From Candidatus Uhrbacteria bacterium RIFOXYB2_FULL_45_11 (GTDB lineage: Bacteria; Patescibacteriota; Patescibacteriia; UBA9934; GWF2-40-263), in NCBI GenBank assembly GCA_001791715.1, contig MGFD01000030.1, positions 9,246 through 41,609 on the forward strand: a stretch of DNA of 32,364 bases. Reading direction: 5' to 3'. The first letter of the stretch is position 1; every line of letters starts with the position of its first letter. Below, piece after piece: positions 27,163 through 32,364 of this stretch. The notes under the pieces are model-generated. The model was not told the DNA's origin and did no database searches. It saw only the letters and a list, made by a program, of their open reading frames with translations. A program made the translations under genes and the position numbers.

Positions 27163-27272
27163 TGTCATCTTGAGCGACCGTTTTATGTCTAGTCGAAAGA
27201 TCTCGCGTTTACGTGAGATCCCTCGGCTGCGCTAAGAGGCTGCTTCGCAGTGCGCTCCGCTCGGGATGACAC
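27163..27272 (+). repeat. P2: GTCAT...ATGAC palindromic element directly upstream of tyrS
   Basis: It shares both ends and a 33-nt core with P1 and carries an extra 26-nt internal segment (aagaggctgcttcgcagtgcgctccg). It ends 8 nt before the tyrS ATG. Confidence 0.8.
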
Positions 27273-27279
27273 AAAATTT

Positions 27280-28482
27280 ATGTCCACAAATACCGATAAA
27301 GATGCAATCAATCACTTGCTTACGCGCGGGGTAGAAAATATCTACCCGTCTTTCGATTATCTTGAGGCGCGCTTGAATGAGGGGAAACAACTCACATTGT
27401 ATCTTGGAATCGATCCAACCGGTCCAGATTTACATTTGGGTCACGCGATTCCACTTCGCAAAATGGCAGAATTCCAAAAACTTGGTCACAAGTTGATTTT
27501 GCTTATTGGGGATTTCACGGCGATGATTGGCGATCCAACAGATAAATCCGCAACGCGTGTGCAGCAAACGCGCGAGCAAGTTCTTGCGAATGCCGCGAAG
27601 TATAAAGAACAAGCGAGCAAAATCATTTCGTTTGAAGGCGAGAATGCGGCTGAACTCAAATACAACAGCGAATGGCTCGCGAAACTCGGATTCACAGATG
27701 TTGTTGAACTCGCGTCGAACTTTACGGTTCAACAAATGCTTGAACGTGATATGTTCGAAAAGCGTATTGCAGAAGGAAAGCCCGTTCATCTTCATGAGTT
27801 CCTCTATCCATTGATGCAAGCGTACGATTCGGTTGCGATGGATGTCGATGGTGAAATTGGTGGAAACGATCAAACATTCAACATGCTTGCGGGTCGCGAT
27901 TTGATGAAATCGTTGAAAGGAAAAGAAAAATTCGTCATCACTTCGAAATTGCTTACGGATCCAACTGGAAAGAAAATGGGAAAGAGTGAAGGGAACATGA
28001 TCACGCTCTCAGACACACCAGACGATGTGTTCGGCAAAGTCATGAGTTGGACCGATGGAATGATTATTCCTGGATTCGAGATTCTGACGGATCTTCCAAA
28101 CGGAGAAATTAAAGAGATGAAAATCGCGATGGGAGACGGTGTGAATCCACGCGACTTCAAGGTGAAGCTCGCGGCAGAAGTAGTTGCGACGTTTTTCGAC
28201 AGAGCAACGGGTGACGCAGCCGTTGATCGATTCAACAAATTATTCCAAGAACACGCCGTACCGGAAGATGTTCCAGAAGTAAAACTCGAAGGTGCGATGA
28301 GTATCGTTGACGCACTCGTTGCAACCAAGCTTGCGCAATCAAAAGGCGACGCGCGTCGATTAATCGACGGCGGGGGAGTAAAGGTGAACGAGGAAGTCGT
28401 GACCTCATATGATTTTGTTGTGGATCCTGCAATGAGTCCGTTGTTGCAAAAGGGAAAAAGACATTTTGCGCGTATTGTGTAA
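27280..28482 (+). CDS. tyrS: tyrosine--tRNA ligase
   Basis: PTGPDLHLGH (HIGH), KMGKS (KMSKS) and a C-terminal S4-like domain. ATG 27280 was preferred; the ORF-track start at 27250 lies in P2. Confidence 0.95.
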   Translation: MSTNTDKDAINHLLTRGVENIYPSFDYLEARLNEGKQLTLYLGIDPTGPDLHLGHAIPLRKMAEFQKLGHKLILLIGDFTAMIGDPTDKSATRVQQTREQVLANAAKYKEQASKIISFEGENAAELKYNSEWLAKLGFTDVVELASNFTVQQMLERDMFEKRIAEGKPVHLHEFLYPLMQAYDSVAMDVDGEIGGNDQTFNMLAGRDLMKSLKGKEKFVITSKLLTDPTGKKMGKSEGNMITLSDTPDDVFGKVMSWTDGMIIPGFEILTDLPNGEIKEMKIAMGDGVNPRDFKVKLAAEVVATFFDRATGDAAVDRFNKLFQEHAVPEDVPEVKLEGAMSIVDALVATKLAQSKGDARRLIDGGGVKVNEEVVTSYDFVVDPAMSPLLQKGKRHFARIV

Positions 28483-28584
28483 TGTGGATGCGAATGTGTT
28501 ATTTATTTTTCGAGCGAAGTCGAGAGACTGAATGCGTTCATGTTCGAATAGTCTCTCCATAAAGTCGAGAAATAAGTTAGAAAA

Positions 28585-28606
28585 GAACCCGTTACGGGTT
28601 CTTTTT
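28585..28606 (+). terminator. rho-independent terminator of tyrS
   Basis: gaacccg-tta-cgggttc followed by T5. An A-run lies upstream. Confidence 0.75.
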
Positions 28607-28728
28607 CGTATAAGAATAATTATCCACAAGACGCTTGTTTCCTTTGTGTTGATAGAAGAAAATGTATCCAATATGAAAAAACAAACATCCATAAAGACCT
28701 GATTATTTATCAGGCAAAAGATGGGGCG

Positions 28729-29652
28729 TTGGAATTTAAAGCGGACAGTAAAAAAGAAACGATTTGGTTAACACAGCAACAAGTTGCGCAGCTTTTTGAT
28801 GTTCAAAAGGCCGCAATTTCAAAGCATGTTAAGAACATCTTTGATACAAAAGAACTTTCTTATCAAGCAACTGTTTCCAAAATGGAAACAGTTCAAATTG
28901 AAGGAGAGAGAAAAATTAAACGTTCGGTTGAGTATTACAATCTTGATTTAGTTTTGTCTGTGGGTTATCGCGTAAATTCGATTAAAGCTACGCAATTCCG
29001 CCAATGGGCAACCAAAACGTTGCGTCAGCACATCACAAAGGGGTACACCATTAATCCAAAAGTCATTAAAAATCATTACGCCGAATTTCAGAAAGCGATT
29101 CAGAATATTAAACAGCTTTTGCCGGCAGAAACAAATATTGATCACGCAAGTGTATTAGAGTTGATCTCTGCGTTCGCGGACACATGGATTTCGCTTGAGG
29201 CGTATGACAAAGACACATTTGCCACAAAAGGAACAACAAAAAAATCCATCACCATTACCTCTGACATGCTTTCTCAAGCGCTCGCAGAATTAAGGCGCGT
29301 GCTTATGAAGAAAAAAGAAGCAACCGAGTTGTTTGGATCTGAACGCAAATCAGGAAGTGTTCAGGGAATTGTTGGAAACATCATGCAAACATTTGGCGGC
29401 AAGCAACTCTATCCAACCATTGAAGAGAAAGCCGCGAACCTTTTGTACTTCATGGTCAAAGATCATCCATTCTCTGACGGCAATAAGCGCAGTGGTGCGT
29501 ATGCGTTTGTTTGGTTTTTAAATCAAGCCGGTGTTTTGAATCGCTCAACACTCACCCCACCAGCTCTTACGGCACTTACGCTTTTCATCGCGGAAAGTGA
29601 TCCAAAACACAAAGATAAAATGATTGGTCTTGTTTTGCAGCTTCTGAAATAA
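28729..29652 (+). CDS. RhuM-like N-terminal domain fused to a Fic/Doc domain (Doc-type HPFSDGNKR motif); the 5' end is probably disrupted or mis-called
   Basis: TIWLTQQQVAQLF..YYNLDLVLSVGYRVNS..QFRQWAT parallels the RhuM gene at 30535. C-terminus has DHPFSDGNKRSGAYAF. Homology to the paralogue continues upstream of 28729 in the same frame, with no ATG there. Confidence 0.75.
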   Translation: MEFKADSKKETIWLTQQQVAQLFDVQKAAISKHVKNIFDTKELSYQATVSKMETVQIEGERKIKRSVEYYNLDLVLSVGYRVNSIKATQFRQWATKTLRQHITKGYTINPKVIKNHYAEFQKAIQNIKQLLPAETNIDHASVLELISAFADTWISLEAYDKDTFATKGTTKKSITITSDMLSQALAELRRVLMKKKEATELFGSERKSGSVQGIVGNIMQTFGGKQLYPTIEEKAANLLYFMVKDHPFSDGNKRSGAYAFVWFLNQAGVLNRSTLTPPALTALTLFIAESDPKHKDKMIGLVLQLLK

Positions 29653-29711
29653 CCCTTGATGTTTTGATGAAAATAAGGCAAGCTTGCCTCAAATTCACCT
29701 AACGTCCATCT

Positions 29712-30425
29712 ATGTCCACAAAATTGGAACAAATCGAATCCCTTTCGGAACAAAATTCCCTTGAAGCGATCCAAGCGCTTCTTGAGATCTTGCAAGATGA
29801 AACACTCACAGAAGAAGAGCTTGAAGCCGCAGAAGAAGCGTTTGAGACCGTCTCTTTTTTGCACGCGCTTCCACAAAATGAAGAAGAAGAGCGTGATGTC
29901 AAACTTTGTGCGCTCATTGCAAAGCGTCTCGACTATTTGCAAGACCTCGCGTTTGATTTTTACGAAGAGTCTGAAAATTTGGAACGTTGTAAATTAGAAT
30001 CTGAAGTTGCGGCTCGTATGCTGGAGCTTGCAACAGAAGATCAAAAGCAAGATCGCGAAATTGGCGTAAGTGTTGCGCATGACATGCTCGTCATGGCAGA
30101 AGAATCCTGCTCAACGGTTGAAGCTGAACTTGAACGCACAAACGAATGGATCGAATGCGCACACGACATGCTTCTCACACAAAAGTACCGCGCGCTCCCT
30201 GAAGAATGTTTTGAAGTGTTGTTCCCATCGGATGATGAGGATGAAGATGAAGAAGAATTTGATTGCTGCGGCGAGGATGATTGTGGAAGTGAAGAGTGTG
30301 AAGGATGTGACGATTGTACTGGTGGATGTAACGGAGAAGGATGTGAAGGCGGATGTGAGGAAGATATTGTGGAGGATGAAGAAGAGATGGAGGAAGGATG
30401 CTGCGGCGGAGGATGCTGCAAGTAA
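29712..30425 (+). CDS. extremely acidic hypothetical protein with a Cys-rich C-terminal tail
   Basis: 237 aa, Glu/Asp-rich throughout. The last 54 residues contain 13 Cys (DCCGEDDCGSEECEGCDDCTGGCNGEGCEGGC...GCCGGGCCK). Confidence 0.65.
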   Translation: MSTKLEQIESLSEQNSLEAIQALLEILQDETLTEEELEAAEEAFETVSFLHALPQNEEEERDVKLCALIAKRLDYLQDLAFDFYEESENLERCKLESEVAARMLELATEDQKQDREIGVSVAHDMLVMAEESCSTVEAELERTNEWIECAHDMLLTQKYRALPEECFEVLFPSDDEDEDEEEFDCCGEDDCGSEECEGCDDCTGGCNGEGCEGGCEEDIVEDEEEMEEGCCGGGCCK

Positions 30426-30431
30426 ATAAAA

Positions 30432-30459
30432 AGCCGAGCCTGTGAGGGCTTGGCTTTTT
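30432..30459 (+). terminator. terminator hairpin T1 (identical copy at 31590)
   Basis: agccgagcc-tgtgag-ggcttggct followed by T-run. Confidence 0.75.
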
Positions 30460-30534
30460 ATATCCACACAAACCTTTCTTTTTTGAGGGCAATAGGGAAA
30501 GATTGGGATAACTATTTTTTTTACACACAACCCT

Positions 30535-31569
30535 ATGGAAAAGAAAGAATTAAACAACGAAATTATTATCTATCAATCCAAGGATGGACTTACAAAAGTC
30601 GATGTTCAAATGGATGGCGATACGATATGGGTTTCTCAAGCACAACTTGCCGAATTGTTTGGTGTGACTTCACAAAACATCACTATTCACTTAAAAAATA
30701 TCTTTTCCGATGGTGAATTAGATGAAAATCGAACTTGTAAAGAATCCTTACAGGTTCAAAAAGAAGGTGATCGTGAAGTGCAGCGAAAGATAAAAATGTA
30801 TAATTTAGATGTAGTGATTTCGGTTGGTTATCGTATTAACTCTAATATTGCCACGAATTTCCGTATTTGGGCTACAACGCGTCTGCGTGAATATATCGTT
30901 AAGGGTTTTACAATGAATGATGATTTTCTCAAAGAGAGTGGTGGTGGCAAATATTGGCATGAATTGCTTGATCGCATTCGTGACATACGTAGTAGTGAGA
31001 AGGTTTTGTATCGTCAGGTGCTTGATCTGTATGCCACCAGTCTTGATTACAATCCAAAAGCATTGGAATCTATAACGTTCTTCAAAATCGTACAAAATAA
31101 ATTGCACTACGCGGCCCATGGCAACACCGCTGCGGAGGTCATTGCCGCACGAGCAAATGCCGGCAAGCCATTTATGGGTTTGTTGAGTTTTTCGGATGGC
31201 GGAGTAAGTAAAAAAGATATTGCTATTGCAAAAAATTATCTTGATGAGAAAGAGTTAAAGATTTTAAATAATATTGTTTCCGCATTTTTTGATTTGGCGG
31301 AAGTGAAGGTATTGGAACGCCATCCCATGTACATGAAAGACTGGATAACCCAACTCGATAAGTTGATCAGCGCTTTTGACAAAAAAGTTCTTACAGAAAC
31401 TGGCTCAATCAGTCATGAACAGGCAAATGAAAAAGCCGTGAGTGAATATCGCAAGTATCAAGCAAAGATATTGTCTCCGGTTGAGGAGGTGTATTTGGAG
31501 AGTTTGAAGGTGTTGGAAAAGGAGGTGGGGAAGAAGATGAAGGGGGATAGAGTGAAAGAAGGAAAATAG
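30535..31569 (+). CDS. rhuM: RhuM family virulence-associated protein
   Basis: IIIYQSKDGLTKVDVQMDGDTIWVSQAQLAELF..MYNLDVVISVGYRINS..NFRIWATTRLREYIVKGF...KYWHELLDRIRDIRSSEK, the canonical RhuM layout. Confidence 0.85.
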   Translation: MEKKELNNEIIIYQSKDGLTKVDVQMDGDTIWVSQAQLAELFGVTSQNITIHLKNIFSDGELDENRTCKESLQVQKEGDREVQRKIKMYNLDVVISVGYRINSNIATNFRIWATTRLREYIVKGFTMNDDFLKESGGGKYWHELLDRIRDIRSSEKVLYRQVLDLYATSLDYNPKALESITFFKIVQNKLHYAAHGNTAAEVIAARANAGKPFMGLLSFSDGGVSKKDIAIAKNYLDEKELKILNNIVSAFFDLAEVKVLERHPMYMKDWITQLDKLISAFDKKVLTETGSISHEQANEKAVSEYRKYQAKILSPVEEVYLESLKVLEKEVGKKMKGDRVKEGK

Positions 31570-31589
31570 GGTTGATTTTGAACTGTGGG

Positions 31590-31618
31590 AGCCGAGCCTG
31601 TGAGGGCTTGGCTTTTTT
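31590..31618 (+). terminator. terminator hairpin T2 (identical to T1)
   Basis: agccgagcctgtgagggcttggctttttt. Confidence 0.75.
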
Positions 31619-31661
31619 GTTTCATGTTCAAATAAACGGGAAGGGAATAAAATAGACGTAT

Positions 31662-32132
31662 ATGAAAATCCCCTCCAAGCTCAAGCTCCCGATTTCAATC
31701 CTTGTCGCCGTCCTTGTGGGTGCACTCGGTTCGCTTTTTACGTCGTCGTCTGTCACAACGTGGTACGCAACCATCAATAAACCCGCGTTCAATCCGCCCT
31801 CCTGGCTCTTTGCTCCCGTCTGGACGATTCTTTACATCCTTATGGGAATTTCATTCTGGCTCATTTGGAAAAGTCGTTCTCCAGAAAAGCATCGCGCGAT
31901 GGGATTATTCGTCATCCAGCTCATCTTAAACGGAATCTGGTCGCCCATCTTTTTCGGTGCGCAAGCGATCGGCGGAGCACTCGCCCTTATCGTGTTGCTC
32001 TGGGCAGCGATTGTTTTGACCATCCTCGTCTTCAAGAAAATCTCCAAACCAGCCGCCTGGCTTTTGGTGCCGTACATTGTGTGGGTGAGTTTCGCAACCG
32101 TGTTGAACTTTGCGATTTGGAGGTTGAATTAG
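31662..32132 (+). CDS. tspO: TspO/MBR tryptophan-rich sensory protein
   Basis: WYATINKPAFNPPSWLFAPVWTILYILMGIS..., five TM helices, 156 aa. Confidence 0.9.
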   Translation: MKIPSKLKLPISILVAVLVGALGSLFTSSSVTTWYATINKPAFNPPSWLFAPVWTILYILMGISFWLIWKSRSPEKHRAMGLFVIQLILNGIWSPIFFGAQAIGGALALIVLLWAAIVLTILVFKKISKPAAWLLVPYIVWVSFATVLNFAIWRLN

Positions 32133-32173
32133 GGGTTTGATATAAAAATTTCAATTTTAGATTGATGAGAGTT

Positions 32174-32364
32174 ATGTATAGCGAAAATCCGTTTCATTCG
32201 ATGAAACATCTGGATGGAAGTTTGGAAAAAAAAGATGTCGTGAGTCTGGATGCGTCTCTTGATTCTGCAAAAAAGATTGAGAGACTTGGTGGTGGTCAAA
32301 CGGCGAGTGTTTGGAAGATGGAAACAGAGATTGATCATAAGCCATTTTATTTTGCACGAAAACA
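32174..32364 (+). CDS. 3'-truncated ORF running off the window; possible kinase-like N-terminus
   Basis: ATG at 32174 (or 32165), no stop before the window end. LGGGQTASVWKME...FYFARK resembles a Gly-rich loop plus an A-x-K lysine. This ORF is not in the supplied track. Confidence 0.35.
   Translation, partial: MYSENPFHSMKHLDGSLEKKDVVSLDASLDSAKKIERLGGGQTASVWKMETEIDHKPFYFARK

What the first reader, a model, noticed from the sequence alone, without database searches (positions are those of the whole stretch)
28607..31618. AT-rich accessory islet between tyrS and tspO: RhuM-Doc fusion, hyper-acidic Cys-rich protein, second RhuM
Two core genes, tyrS and tspO, flank three co-oriented genes whose sequence is visibly more AT-rich than the flanks.
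- A RhuM-like domain fused to a Doc-type Fic domain. Its HPFSDGNKR motif has Lys where AMPylating Fic proteins have Gly, as in the kinase toxin Doc.
- 60 nt downstream, a 237-aa protein made largely of Glu/Asp.
- A full-length RhuM paralogue.
The short gap after the Doc-like gene contains a 14-bp perfect palindrome, AGGCAAGCTTGCCT (29676-29689). No Phd-like antitoxin is visible, so the acidic protein is a candidate neutraliser, DNA mimic or partner. The layout resembles a toxin-antitoxin or defence-type module that I cannot assign to a described system.
Basis: partly seen in the sequence, partly recalled or inferred. Interest (0 to 1): 0.7.

Follow-up and report, generated by a model that had tools for sequence, protein, structure and literature searches.

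The report
Two RhuM defence genes flanking resident gene
The supposed three-gene toxin module in this Candidatus Uhrbacteria genome is better explained as two separately inserted single-gene RhuM-family phage-defence candidates (one fused to a Doc-type kinase domain) on either side of a resident, uncharacterised acidic gene, so it is mostly ordinary, though RhuM genes turn up beside that acidic gene unexpectedly often.

Summary

- **The two RhuM-family genes are known kinds.** The RhuM-N/Doc fusion matches PADLOC candidate PDC-S23 over its full length. The RhuM gene matches PDC-S05. Both are single-gene candidates.
- **The acidic gene is resident, not accessory.**
  - Relatives carry tyrS–acidic–tspO with neither RhuM gene.
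  - Its GC (0.456) equals the host's, whereas the RhuM segments are 0.39.
  - It diverges like tyrS and PGM.
  - It has its own conserved upstream element and terminator.
- **Relative to the closest genome, the window has two insertions.** The second duplicates a 28-bp terminator.
- **The palindrome is not conserved.** Only its left half recurs in relatives.
- **The RhuM-Doc gene has a 5' frameshift.** It is identical in seven assemblies.
- **The site is a defence-island hot spot.** Relatives carry type I and type III restriction-modification and other defence-type genes there.

One thing stays open. RhuM, Bro-N or Fic genes lie within two genes of an acidic-family member in 7 of 17 contexts, including one very distant member. 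A functional link is not excluded (about 0.2).

The parts
27250..28482 (+). tyrS, the core gene on the left flank
   Evidence: Pfam tRNA-synt_1b, SYY_C-terminal and S4. It is 84% identical in DNA to L015 tyrS.
28581..28606 (+). tyrS terminator hairpin (AAAAGAACCCGTTACGGGTTCTTTTT). In relatives it directly precedes the acidic gene's upstream element.
   Evidence: Sequence read. The same hairpin abuts CTTGAT in L006 and L001 and follows tyrS in L015.
28607..29652 (+). Insertion 1, the RhuM-N/Doc cassette (GC 0.395). It is absent between tyrS and the acidic gene in L015, L006, L001 and L045. The left boundary is approximate.
   Evidence: In blastn against L015, the L015 tyrS end matches the window up to 28469 and the L015 acidic unit resumes at window 29653. 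GC. Contexts.
28620..28628 (+). TTATCCACA, a perfect DnaA-box consensus at the 5' edge of cassette 1. It is the only perfect copy in the window.
   Evidence: The motif is conserved upstream of all six Uhrbacteria RhuM-type genes examined.
28673..28702 (+). The natural ATG of the RhuM-Doc gene followed by an A6 run (28676-28681). In this frame it reads MKKQTSIKT then a stop. A7 would restore MKKTNIHKDLIIYQAKDGAL..., so this is a 1-nt frameshift.
   Evidence: The sequence is identical in six independent ENA assemblies. Homologues are 325-330 aa and start MKK...IIYQAK. The PDC-S23 model match starts at model position 19.
28729..29652 (+). RhuM N-domain/Doc-type Fic fusion ORF: 307 aa from TTG, or 321 aa from ATC 28687 as annotated in GenBank. 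Candidate single-gene defence protein PDC-S23.
   Evidence: Pfam RhuM (model positions 1-92 only) plus Fic. PADLOC PDC-S23 E 9e-109. Foldseek top hits are P1 Doc 3K33, 3DD7 and 3KH2, TM 0.67-0.71. Best PDB sequence hit is a Doc-family protein, 9vzc.
29464..29490 (+). Doc-type active-site motif HPFSDGNKR
   Evidence: H, D, G, N, K and R are invariant in 43 homologues. Consensus from PMC4177925.
29653..29711 (+). Conserved upstream element of the acidic gene (CCTTGAT-N17/18-(T)CAGGCAAGCTT-N4-CAAATTCA...ATG).
   Evidence: Alignment A2 and 12 Uhrbacteria loci. It is clear in 9 loci and variant in L018 and L019, whatever gene lies upstream. Only AGGCAAGCT of the palindrome is conserved.
29712..30425 (+). 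Resident acidic gene ('ACID'). Residues 1-175 form a helical domain with a long hairpin. Residues 176-237 form a disordered Asp/Glu/Cys/Gly tail ending in GCCGGGCCK. The family is uncharacterised.
   Evidence: No Pfam, NCBIfam or PADLOC hit. AF2 pLDDT is above 90 for residues 1-175 and below 50 for the tail. No significant Foldseek hit in PDB or BFVD. 11 close homologues and 91 representative clusters. Synteny.
30432..30459 (+). Terminator of the acidic gene, copy 1 of a perfect 28-bp direct repeat
   Evidence: the repeat finder D5 and I7. L015 has a single copy that matches both window copies.
30460..31617 (+). Insertion 2, the RhuM cassette (GC 0.389) plus the second terminator copy. It begins with ATATCCACA (30460-30468).
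   Evidence: blastn against L015. In L007 and L015 the acidic gene's terminator runs directly into the tspO promoter region. GC and motif.
30535..31569 (+). Full-length RhuM gene (PADLOC PDC-S05)
   Evidence: Pfam PF13310 350 bits, model positions 2-247 of 252. PDC-S05 E 5e-141. It is 49% identical to the fusion only over the N-terminal ~105 residues.
31590..31617 (+). Copy 2 of the 28-bp terminator repeat
31662..32132 (+). tspO, the core gene on the right flank
   Evidence: Pfam TspO_MBR. It lies directly after the acidic gene in L007 and L015.

Best explanation
**What it is.** The window comes from Candidatus Uhrbacteria bacterium RIFOXYB2_FULL_45_11. The ancestral local order is tyrS, acidic gene, tspO. 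Two separate single-gene cassettes of the RhuM family have been inserted, one on each side of the resident acidic gene.

**The two cassettes.** Both start with the same promoter-region type: a TTATCCACA motif just after a terminator, then CTTGTT. Both encode the same N-terminal module, which the model suggests is a winged helix. They differ in the C-terminal part.
- Cassette 1 carries a Doc-type Fic domain.
- Cassette 2 carries the RhuM C-domain.

**How they probably work (inferred).** Each acts alone as a phage-defence or abortive-infection protein. The N-terminal module would sense or bind a cue. The C-terminal effector would then shut down the cell. For the Doc domain this would be phosphorylation of a translation GTPase such as EF-Tu, as in P1 Doc. 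In this population the Doc fusion has a 5' frameshift and may be crippled.

**The site.** The tyrS-acidic-tspO neighbourhood is a defence-island hot spot in this lineage. The downstream RhuM cassette appears to spread by recombination that uses the 3' end and terminator of the acidic gene as homology. That would explain the flanking direct repeats and part of the recurrent adjacency.

**The acidic protein.** It is a lineage-conserved helical protein with a probably metal-binding acidic Cys-rich tail. Its function is unknown. On current evidence it is not a dedicated antitoxin.
For: **Shown**
- Source organism and identical protein.
- Empty sites in relatives.
  - L015 (acidic protein about 90% identical) has tyrS-ACID-tspO. 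Its acidic unit aligns to window 29653-30459, and one terminator matches both window copies.
  - L006, L001 and L045 have tyrS next to ACID.
  - L007 has ACID next to tspO.
- GC is 0.395 and 0.389 for the two inserts against 0.456 for the acidic unit and 0.457 for the window.
- Core-like divergence between the window and L015: dS is 0.75 for PGM, 1.03 for tyrS and 0.75 for ACID.
- The acidic gene has its own conserved upstream element whatever lies upstream, and its own terminator.
- Family assignments.
  - PDC-S23 at E 9e-109 and PDC-S05 at E 5e-141.
  - The fusion family has more than 7,500 scored hits across phyla.
  - It sits with unrelated neighbours in L014, L046 and in Vibrio and Legionella plasmids.
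- Doc type is supported by the motif, a Doc-family PDB sequence hit and Foldseek top hits to P1 Doc.
- The two RhuM genes share only the N-module and share an upstream motif.
- Recombination scars.
  - A perfect 28-bp repeat in the window.
  - In L019 the RhuM gene is followed by a 270-nt second copy of the acidic gene's 3' end at 84-94% identity. The fragment is the native-like copy.
  - L016 has a second 'CAAGTAA + terminator + TATCCACA' after its own acidic stop.
- Defence-island neighbours next to ACID in relatives: type I R-M with SMODS/SLATT or OLD, a type III-like R-M, AAA_15 plus HNH, PIF1-WYL, Bro-N, DUF3800 and SNF2.

**From the literature**
- One PDC-S05 gene alone reduced plating of T7 and T5 about 1000-fold.
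Against: - RhuM-type or Fic genes lie within two genes of an acidic-family member in 7 of 17 contexts. That is more than a random location would give.
- One of these is the very distant member P0220, flanked by Bro-N plus RhuM on one side and a Fic gene on the other. A locus-specific hot spot does not explain this case.
- L016, a different species-level genome, has the same trio. The dS of the Doc 3' end is about equal to the dS of ACID (1.24 against 1.19). The upstream adjacency may therefore be old, not a recent insertion.
- There is no + strand terminator in the 59-nt gap between the Doc fusion and ACID, so co-transcription is possible.
- The function of the effector domains, of the TTATCCACA motif and of the acidic protein is inferred, not tested.
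- dS values are near saturation.
Confidence: 0.68

Rival explanations
1. The acidic protein is a functional partner of RhuM-, Bro-N- or Fic-type proteins. It could be a neutraliser (antitoxin-like), a DNA-mimicking decoy bound by their DNA-binding N-module, or a regulator. On this view the gene order reflects a real module in which the toxin genes are often lost and the partner is retained.
For: - RhuM-type gene immediately upstream and co-oriented in the window, L016, L007 and L002 (as a decayed remnant).
- RhuM immediately downstream in the window, L016 and L019.
- Bro-N immediately upstream in L019.
- The distant member P0220 lies between Bro-N plus RhuM and a Fic gene.
- There is no terminator between the Doc fusion and ACID.
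- The protein is extremely acidic, with net charge about -61.
- No Phd-type antitoxin is present.
Against: - ACID stands without any RhuM or Fic neighbour in 10 of 17 contexts, including the closest relative at both junctions.
- The RhuM-Doc and RhuM families are orders of magnitude larger than the acidic family: more than 7,500 scored hits against 91 representative clusters. They occur without it.
- A RhuM gene alone was tolerated and protective in E. coli.
- ACID has host GC, core-like divergence and its own upstream element.
- There is no fold similarity to known DNA mimics in PDB and no viral homologues.
- P0220's membership of the family is borderline (E 6e-4).
Confidence: 0.2
2. The RhuM-Doc gene is a decaying pseudogene, and the arrangement is a relic with no current function for that gene.
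For: - A 1-nt frameshift separates the natural ATG (28673) from the RhuM frame. There is no ATG, GTG or TTG in frame before 28729.
- The frameshift is identical in seven assemblies.
- The ORF lacks about 18-20 N-terminal residues that homologues conserve.
- A clearly decayed RhuM remnant occupies the same position in L002.
Against: - Apart from this one frameshift, the rest of the ORF (307 codons) is intact. It is 74-75% identical to full-length homologues, and all catalytic residues are present.
- L016 keeps a 96% identical C-terminus.
- An alternative start is possible, for example ATC 28687 as annotated in GenBank, or reinitiation.
- The assemblies may all derive from related samples.
Confidence: 0.4
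3. The whole tyrS-tspO interval, acidic gene included, is one horizontally acquired islet.
For: - All three genes are co-oriented and lie between two core genes.
- The acidic family is sporadic overall, with 91 clusters at 50% identity in 1.8 billion representatives.
Against: - The acidic gene is syntenic with PGM and tyrS in at least 8 Uhrbacteria loci out to dS above 1.5.
- It has host GC.
- It is present when both RhuM genes are absent.
Confidence: 0.05

Closest known systems
PADLOC phage-defence candidate PDC-S23, which NCBI names 'virulence protein RhuM/Fic/DOC family protein'
   Same: - Full-length profile match, E 9e-109.
- Same two-domain architecture and invariant HPFxDGNKR.
- 62-75% identity to many 325-330-aa members.
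- Single gene with no fixed partner.
   Different: - The window copy has a 5' frameshift that removes the conserved N-terminal ~18-20 residues from the ORF.
- I found no experimental test of PDC-S23 in the library searched.
P1 Doc toxin of the Phd-Doc type II toxin-antitoxin system
   Same: - Doc-type motif with Lys at position 8.
- The predicted fold superposes best on P1 Doc: 3K33, 3DD7 and 3KH2, TM 0.67-0.71, rmsd about 3 A.
- The best PDB sequence hit is a Doc-family protein.
   Different: - It is fused to a ~180-residue RhuM N-module and linker, not a free 126-aa toxin.
- There is no Phd/YefM-type gene upstream. The upstream neighbour is the tyrS terminator.
- TIGR01550 scores 32.6, below the cut-off of 38.65.
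- The target and kinase activity are untested.
RhuM (Pfam PF13310; PADLOC PDC-S05), first noted in Salmonella SPI-3 and commonly embedded in type I R-M loci
   Same: - The window's second gene is a full-length member: 350 bits and E 5e-141.
- In relatives RhuM genes sit beside type I R-M genes, as described in PMC3710099.
- One member protects E. coli alone.
   Different: - Here it is not inside an R-M operon. It lies between a resident acidic gene and tspO, flanked by a duplicated terminator.
- The mechanism of RhuM is unknown.
Acidic DNA-mimic anti-restriction proteins (Ocr, ArdA)
   Same: - Very acidic small protein, pI about 4.
- Found next to restriction-modification genes in relatives.
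   Different: - No sequence or fold similarity to Ocr or ArdA. No Foldseek hit reached E 0.001.
- It is chromosomal, vertically inherited and host-like in composition.
- It was not found in viral contigs.
Genomic islands that integrate into the 3' end of a gene and duplicate it (for example tRNA- or tmRNA-targeting islands)
   Same: The RhuM cassette downstream of the acidic gene is flanked by direct repeats made of that gene's terminator (window, 28 bp) or its 3' ~270 nt (L019). The displaced copy is the native-like one.
   Different: - The cassette has no integrase and is only about 1.1 kb with one gene.
- The L019 repeats are 84-94% identical, which fits single-crossover homologous recombination of a circular intermediate better than site-specific integration. 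This is an inference.

Membership tests
PDC-S23 / RhuM-Fic-DOC fusion family | Full-length match to the family profile | tested here: met
   PDLC04965 E 8.8e-109, protein residues 3-307 against model positions 19-324 of 327.
PDC-S23 / RhuM-Fic-DOC fusion family | RhuM N-terminal module followed by a Fic/Doc domain in one polypeptide | tested here: met
   Pfam RhuM at residues 47-135 (model positions 1-92 of 252) and Fic at residues 183-264.
PDC-S23 / RhuM-Fic-DOC fusion family | Intact reading frame from the conserved MKK...IIYQAK N-terminus (325-330 aa) | tested here: not met
   A frameshift in the A6 run at 28676-28681 leaves a 307-aa ORF.
PDC-S23 / RhuM-Fic-DOC fusion family | Confers phage resistance | not testable with these tools
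   No paper in the searched library reports a test of PDC-S23.
Doc toxin (Phd-Doc type II TA) | Active-site motif HxFx(D/N)(A/G)NKR with Lys at position 8 | tested here: met
   HPFSDGNKR at 29464-29490. K is invariant in 43 homologues. Consensus from PMC4177925.
Doc toxin (Phd-Doc type II TA) | Doc-type helical core fold | tested here: met
   Foldseek ranks 1-5 are P1 Doc chains, TM(target) 0.67-0.71, probability 1.00. In the model used, block-mean pLDDT is mostly about 70-92 over residues 185-320.
Doc toxin (Phd-Doc type II TA) | Score above the curated cut-off of TIGR01550 (DOC_P1) | tested here: not met
   32.6 bits against a cut-off of 38.65.
Doc toxin (Phd-Doc type II TA) | Adjacent upstream Phd/YefM-type antitoxin gene | tested here: not met
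   Upstream are the tyrS terminator and the cassette promoter region, with no such ORF. The downstream acidic protein has no antitoxin family hit.
Doc toxin (Phd-Doc type II TA) | Phosphorylates EF-Tu and arrests translation | not testable with these tools
   Needs biochemistry.
RhuM / PDC-S05 | Full-length PF13310 and PDC-S05 profile match | tested here: met
   350 bits, model positions 2-247 of 252. PDLC04843 E 5.3e-141.
RhuM / PDC-S05 | Stand-alone single-gene unit | tested here: met
   It has its own upstream region and terminator. It is present or absent as a unit relative to L015 and L007.
RhuM / PDC-S05 | Anti-phage activity | not testable with these tools
   Reported for one cold-seep homologue only.
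   - The trio is seen only in the window and L016.
- The acidic gene is alone in L015 (at both junctions), L006, L001, L045, L017, L018 and the P0003 locus.
- Only one RhuM neighbour is present in L007, L002 and L019.
   7 of 17 contexts, including the distant P0220. However, the loci are phylogenetically dependent, they lie in a defence island, and no control set was available.
DNA-mimic anti-restriction proteins (Ocr/ArdA) | Fold or sequence similarity to a known mimic | tested here: not met
   No PDB sequence hit below E 0.047. The best Foldseek E is 0.25, and the hits are generic coiled coils.

The most novel reading that the evidence does not exclude
The acidic family consists of a helical-hairpin domain plus an Asp/Glu/Cys tail. 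It has about 91 representative clusters and is absent from Pfam. It could be a partner of RhuM-, Bro-N- or Fic-type defence proteins in Uhrbacteria and related uncultured bacteria. For example, it could be a DNA-mimicking decoy or neutraliser that holds their DNA-binding N-module until infection.
Probability: 0.2. Interest if true: 0.65.

Novelty: new member of a known kind. Interest (0 to 1): 0.33.

Why it matters
- **For annotation.** The locus should be read as two known single-gene defence candidates (PDC-S23 and PDC-S05) inserted into a conserved tyrS-acidic-tspO backbone. It is not a new toxin-antitoxin system.
- **For the biology of defence islands.**
  - It shows a defence-island hot spot in a reduced CPR (Candidate Phyla Radiation) genome.
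  - The RhuM N-module is reused with interchangeable effectors (RhuM C-domain or Doc).
  - The repeat scars suggest that 1-kb defence cassettes spread by recombination anchored on a resident gene.
- **If the minority reading is right.** RhuM and Doc fusions, which have no known regulator, would gain a candidate partner, and the acidic family would gain a function.

Tried and rejected
- **Remote homology of the acidic protein.** Pfam, NCBIfam and PADLOC on the window protein, Pfam on 26 family members, and a PDB profile search gave only weak hits to coiled-coil or unrelated proteins.
- **Fold of the acidic protein.** Foldseek against PDB and BFVD gave no hit with E at or below 0.001. I considered a DksA/Gre-like secondary-channel factor because of the hairpin. 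I dropped it because the acidic hairpin tip is not conserved in distant members and no such structure ranked.
- **More loci.**
  - The metagenome contigs protein-pattern scan found nothing.
  - A DNA-pattern scan with the conserved upstream element gave 23 matches, none encoding the gene. All were chance matches.
  - Two viral-contig scans found nothing.
- **Rfam.** The interval 28000-32364 gave no RNA family at E up to 0.1.
- **Sigma-70 promoter scan.** It found fewer sites than shuffles and none upstream of the three genes. I could not assign -35 and -10 boxes to the conserved elements.
- **The palindrome as an operator or terminator.** Rejected because its right half is not conserved and such palindromes are not rare here.
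- **dS comparison to date the cassettes.** Values of 0.6-1.7 are too close to saturation, and the Doc fragment is too short (67 codons), to be decisive.
- **Third protein search with the family profile.** It added little because low-complexity words crowded the candidate list.

Full report
**Source and anatomy.** The acidic protein is 100% identical to a hypothetical protein of Candidatus Uhrbacteria bacterium RIFOXYB2_FULL_45_11, on a 41.6-kb contig.

| Gene | Coordinates | Length |
|---|---|---|
| tyrS | 27250-28482 | 410 aa |
| RhuM-Fic ORF | 28729-29652 | 307 aa |
| acidic ORF | 29712-30425 | 237 aa |
| RhuM | 30535-31569 | 344 aa |
| tspO | 31662-32132 | 156 aa |

- Pfam confirms tyrS and TspO. 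It finds only the first 92 of 252 RhuM model positions plus a Fic domain in the first protein, and a full-length RhuM in the third.
- The two RhuM-family proteins are 49% identical over about 105 N-terminal residues and nowhere else. They share an N-module and differ in the C-terminal part.
- The motif HPFSDGNKR (29464-29490) fits the Doc consensus HxFx(D/N)(A/G)NKR. Lys at position 8 is the feature linked to kinase rather than AMPylase chemistry (PMC4177925).
- H, D, G, N, K and R of the motif are invariant in 43 homologues.

**Is the Fic domain Doc-type?**
- The best PDB sequence match is a 'death-on-curing family protein', 9vzc, E 0.002.
- An AlphaFold model from a 43-sequence alignment has mean pLDDT 69, and is mostly about 70-92 (10-residue block means) over the Fic region. 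Its five top Foldseek matches are P1 Doc chains: 3K33, 3DD7 and 3KH2, TM 0.67-0.71, rmsd about 3 A.
- TIGR01550 (DOC_P1) scores below its cut-off, 32.6 against 38.65.
- There is no Phd-like gene.
- The domain therefore works like Doc on present evidence. The protein is not a member of the Phd-Doc toxin-antitoxin family in the strict sense.

**Known systems.**
- PADLOC profiles match both RhuM-family proteins end to end. The fusion matches PDC-S23 (E 9e-109) and the RhuM gene matches PDC-S05 (E 5e-141). Both are single-gene phage-defence candidates.
- The fusion family is very large: 7,556 hits at E ≤ 1e-20 among 8,000 scored candidates. Members are typically 325-330 aa, occur in many phyla, and NCBI names them 'virulence protein RhuM/Fic/DOC family protein'.
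- Anantharaman et al. 2013 noted that RhuM-like genes occupy the position of Doc toxins in restriction-modification loci. [quoted passage not shown]
- A cold-seep study reports that one PDC-S05 gene alone cut plating of T7 and T5 about 1000-fold in E. coli (bioRxiv 10.1101/2024.09.26.614923).

- The PDC-S23 match starts at model position 19. Homologues begin MKK...IIYQAK.
- In the window the natural ATG (28673) is followed by an A6 run and reads MKKQTSIKT then a stop.
- The RhuM frame (...KDLIIYQAKDGALEFKAD...) is open from 28576 but has no ATG, GTG or TTG before 28729.
- One more A would restore a protein of about 326 aa.
- The sequence is identical in six other assemblies, so it is not a one-off assembly error.
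- GenBank annotates a 321-aa product from ATC 28687.
- The gene may be crippled, or it may be translated from an unusual start.

**The acidic gene is resident.** Eleven close homologues exist. Their contexts decide the matter.
- In L015, the closest relative (about 90% amino-acid identity), the order is PGM, a GCS2-like gene, tyrS, acidic gene, tspO.
  - The L015 acidic unit aligns to window 29653-30459 at 85% DNA identity. PGM (84.6%) and tyrS (84.4%) are similar.
  - A single L015 terminator matches both window 30434-30459 and 31592-31617.
- L006, L001 and L045 have tyrS next to the acidic gene.
- L007 has the acidic gene next to tspO, with the same terminator-to-tspO-promoter sequence as the window.
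- GC is 0.395 and 0.389 for the two inserted segments, but 0.456 for the acidic unit against 0.457 for the window.
- dS between the window and L015 is 0.75 for the acidic gene, 0.75 for PGM and 1.03 for tyrS.
- The acidic gene carries its own upstream element, CCTTGAT-N17/18-(T)CAGGCAAGCTT-N4-CAAATTCA...ATG.
  - It is clear in 9 of 12 Uhrbacteria loci and variant in L018 and L019.
  - It does not depend on whether tyrS, a RhuM gene or something else lies upstream.
Only AGGCAAGCT is conserved and the right half varies. The window holds six perfect 14-bp palindromes against about two in shuffles.

**Two insertions.** Relative to L015, the window has two insertions.
- Insertion 1 spans about 28607-29652 and carries the RhuM-Doc cassette.
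- Insertion 2 spans 30460-31617 and carries the RhuM cassette. It is bounded by a perfect 28-bp direct repeat, which is the acidic gene's terminator.
- In L019 the acidic gene is followed by a RhuM gene and then by a second copy of the acidic gene's last ~270 nt plus terminator, at 84-94% identity. The fragment resembles the native allele (as in L018/P0008). The 3' end of the full gene is the divergent one. This pattern is what single-crossover integration of a circular piece carrying 'acidic 3' end-terminator-RhuM' would produce. That is my inference.
- L016 has a vestigial second 'CAAGTAA-terminator-TATCCACA' about 75 nt after its own acidic stop.
- All six Uhrbacteria RhuM-type genes examined share an upstream TATCCACA placed just after a terminator, followed by N5 and CTT(G/T). 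In most of them the motif reads TTATCCACA, the DnaA-box consensus.
- The only perfect TTATCCACA in the 32-kb window is at 28620.

**A defence-island hot spot.** Next to the acidic gene, relatives carry:
- type I R-M with SMODS/SLATT or an OLD-like ATPase;
- a type III-like methylase and ResIII endonuclease (L017);
- AAA_15/21 plus HNH (L002);
- PIF1-WYL helicase, Bro-N, HsdM and DUF3800 (L018 and L019);
- SNF2 and DUF3800 (L005).

**What the acidic protein is.**
- It has no hit in Pfam, NCBIfam or PADLOC.
- AlphaFold gives a confident helical domain for residues 1-175 (pLDDT above 90), with a long hairpin (helices 57-106 and 112-153). The tail (176-237) is disordered.
- The tail has 28 D/E, 13 Cys and 13 Gly in 62 residues and ends GCCGGGCCK.
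- Foldseek finds only generic coiled coils.
- A profile search of 1.8 billion representatives finds 91 proteins, 25 of them at E ≤ 1e-10.
  - The members I inspected are 188-252 aa.
  - They share W146, A150, P163 and an acidic tail.
  - Most, but not all, carry CxxC-type Cys clusters.
- Metal binding by the tail is my guess from composition only.

**The unresolved point.** RhuM-type, Bro-N or Fic genes lie within two genes of an acidic-family member in 7 of 17 contexts.

| Context | Neighbours |
|---|---|
| window | RhuM-type gene on both sides |
| L016 | same trio as the window; amino-acid identity 95/71/93% |
| L007 | RhuM upstream |
| L002 | decayed RhuM remnant upstream |
| L019 | Bro-N upstream, RhuM downstream |
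| L015 | RhuM after tspO |
| P0220 (very distant member) | Bro-N and RhuM on one side, a Fic gene on the other |

- Ten contexts have none of these neighbours, including the distant members L020, L021 and P0155.
- The closest RhuM-Doc homologues elsewhere (L014, L046) and plasmid copies have unrelated neighbours.
- Hot-spot location and recombination anchored on the acidic gene explain most of the Uhrbacteria cases. They do not explain P0220, whose membership of the family is borderline (E 6e-4).
- I could not enlarge the sample.

**Verdict.**
- The interpretation as a novel three-gene toxin-antitoxin or defence module is not supported.
- The best reading (about 0.68) is two known single-gene RhuM-family defence candidates inserted on either side of a resident, uncharacterised acidic gene in a defence-island hot spot.
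- A functional link between the acidic family and RhuM-, Bro-N- or Fic-type proteins remains possible (about 0.2) and is cheaply testable.

Noticed in passing
window 28673-28702 (A6 run at 28676-28681): A 1-nt frameshift separates the natural ATG of the RhuM-Doc gene from its reading frame. It is identical in six other assemblies. GenBank annotates an ATC start at 28687 (321 aa).
   Followed up: partly
window 28620-28628 and 30460-30468; L016 ~1213; L019 ~6730; L002 ~5440; L015 ~7440: Every Uhrbacteria RhuM-type gene examined is preceded by TATCCACA, placed just after a terminator and followed by N5 and CTT(G/T). In most of them it reads TTATCCACA, the DnaA-box consensus. L006 has the same motif in an 'empty' tyrS-acidic spacer. 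It could be a DnaA-dependent control site or a cassette boundary. This was not tested.
   Followed up: partly
window 30432-30459 and 31590-31617: A perfect 28-bp direct repeat, the terminator hairpin of the acidic gene, brackets the RhuM cassette. The closest relative has one copy.
   Followed up: yes
L019 6001-8420: The acidic gene is followed by RhuM and then by a second, partial copy of the acidic gene's 3' ~270 nt plus terminator (84-94% identical). The fragment is the native-like allele. This suggests single-crossover integration of a circular 'acidic-3'-end + RhuM' piece.
   Followed up: partly
window 29653-29711 and the equivalent region in most Uhrbacteria loci examined: A strongly conserved non-coding element (CCTTGAT...TCAGGCAAGCTT...CAAATTCA) lies upstream of the acidic gene, with no Shine-Dalgarno-like sequence and no Rfam match. 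Its role (promoter, operator or leader) is unknown.
   Followed up: partly
contig of P0220 (ENA ERZ1426841, no DNA available): A very distant acidic-family member lies between Bro-N plus RhuM (divergent) and a 262-aa Fic gene (co-oriented), close to an IS1595 transposase and polysaccharide genes.
   Followed up: no
L015, L019, L020 (record titles): These genome bins are titled 'uncultured Gammaproteobacteria'. However, the PGM and tyrS genes of L015 and L019 are 78-93% identical in protein to the Uhrbacteria window. These two labels look wrong.
   Followed up: no
L002 5473-5948: A decayed RhuM pseudogene, with frameshifts and a large internal deletion, sits immediately upstream of the intact acidic gene. 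Its N-terminus (KKDLIIYQAKDGAIEFKAD) closely matches the window's out-of-frame N-terminus.
   Followed up: partly
L008 4577-4676 against L009: One scaffold of the same population has about 280 nt of the acidic gene replaced by a 100-nt unalignable stretch, and the gene is called as 113 aa. This is probably a scaffold gap. I did not check it.
   Followed up: no
window 1755, 14024, 22304, 24012, 28355: Five further perfect 14-bp palindromes occur in the window: six in all, against about two expected from shuffles.
   Followed up: no
L047 (Vibrio plasmid NZ_AP027048.1) 4001-5261: In this plasmid the RhuM/Fic/DOC gene overlaps by 20 nt a downstream 91-aa helix-turn-helix gene. This could be a partner in that lineage. 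It is not seen in the Legionella plasmid copy.
   Followed up: no
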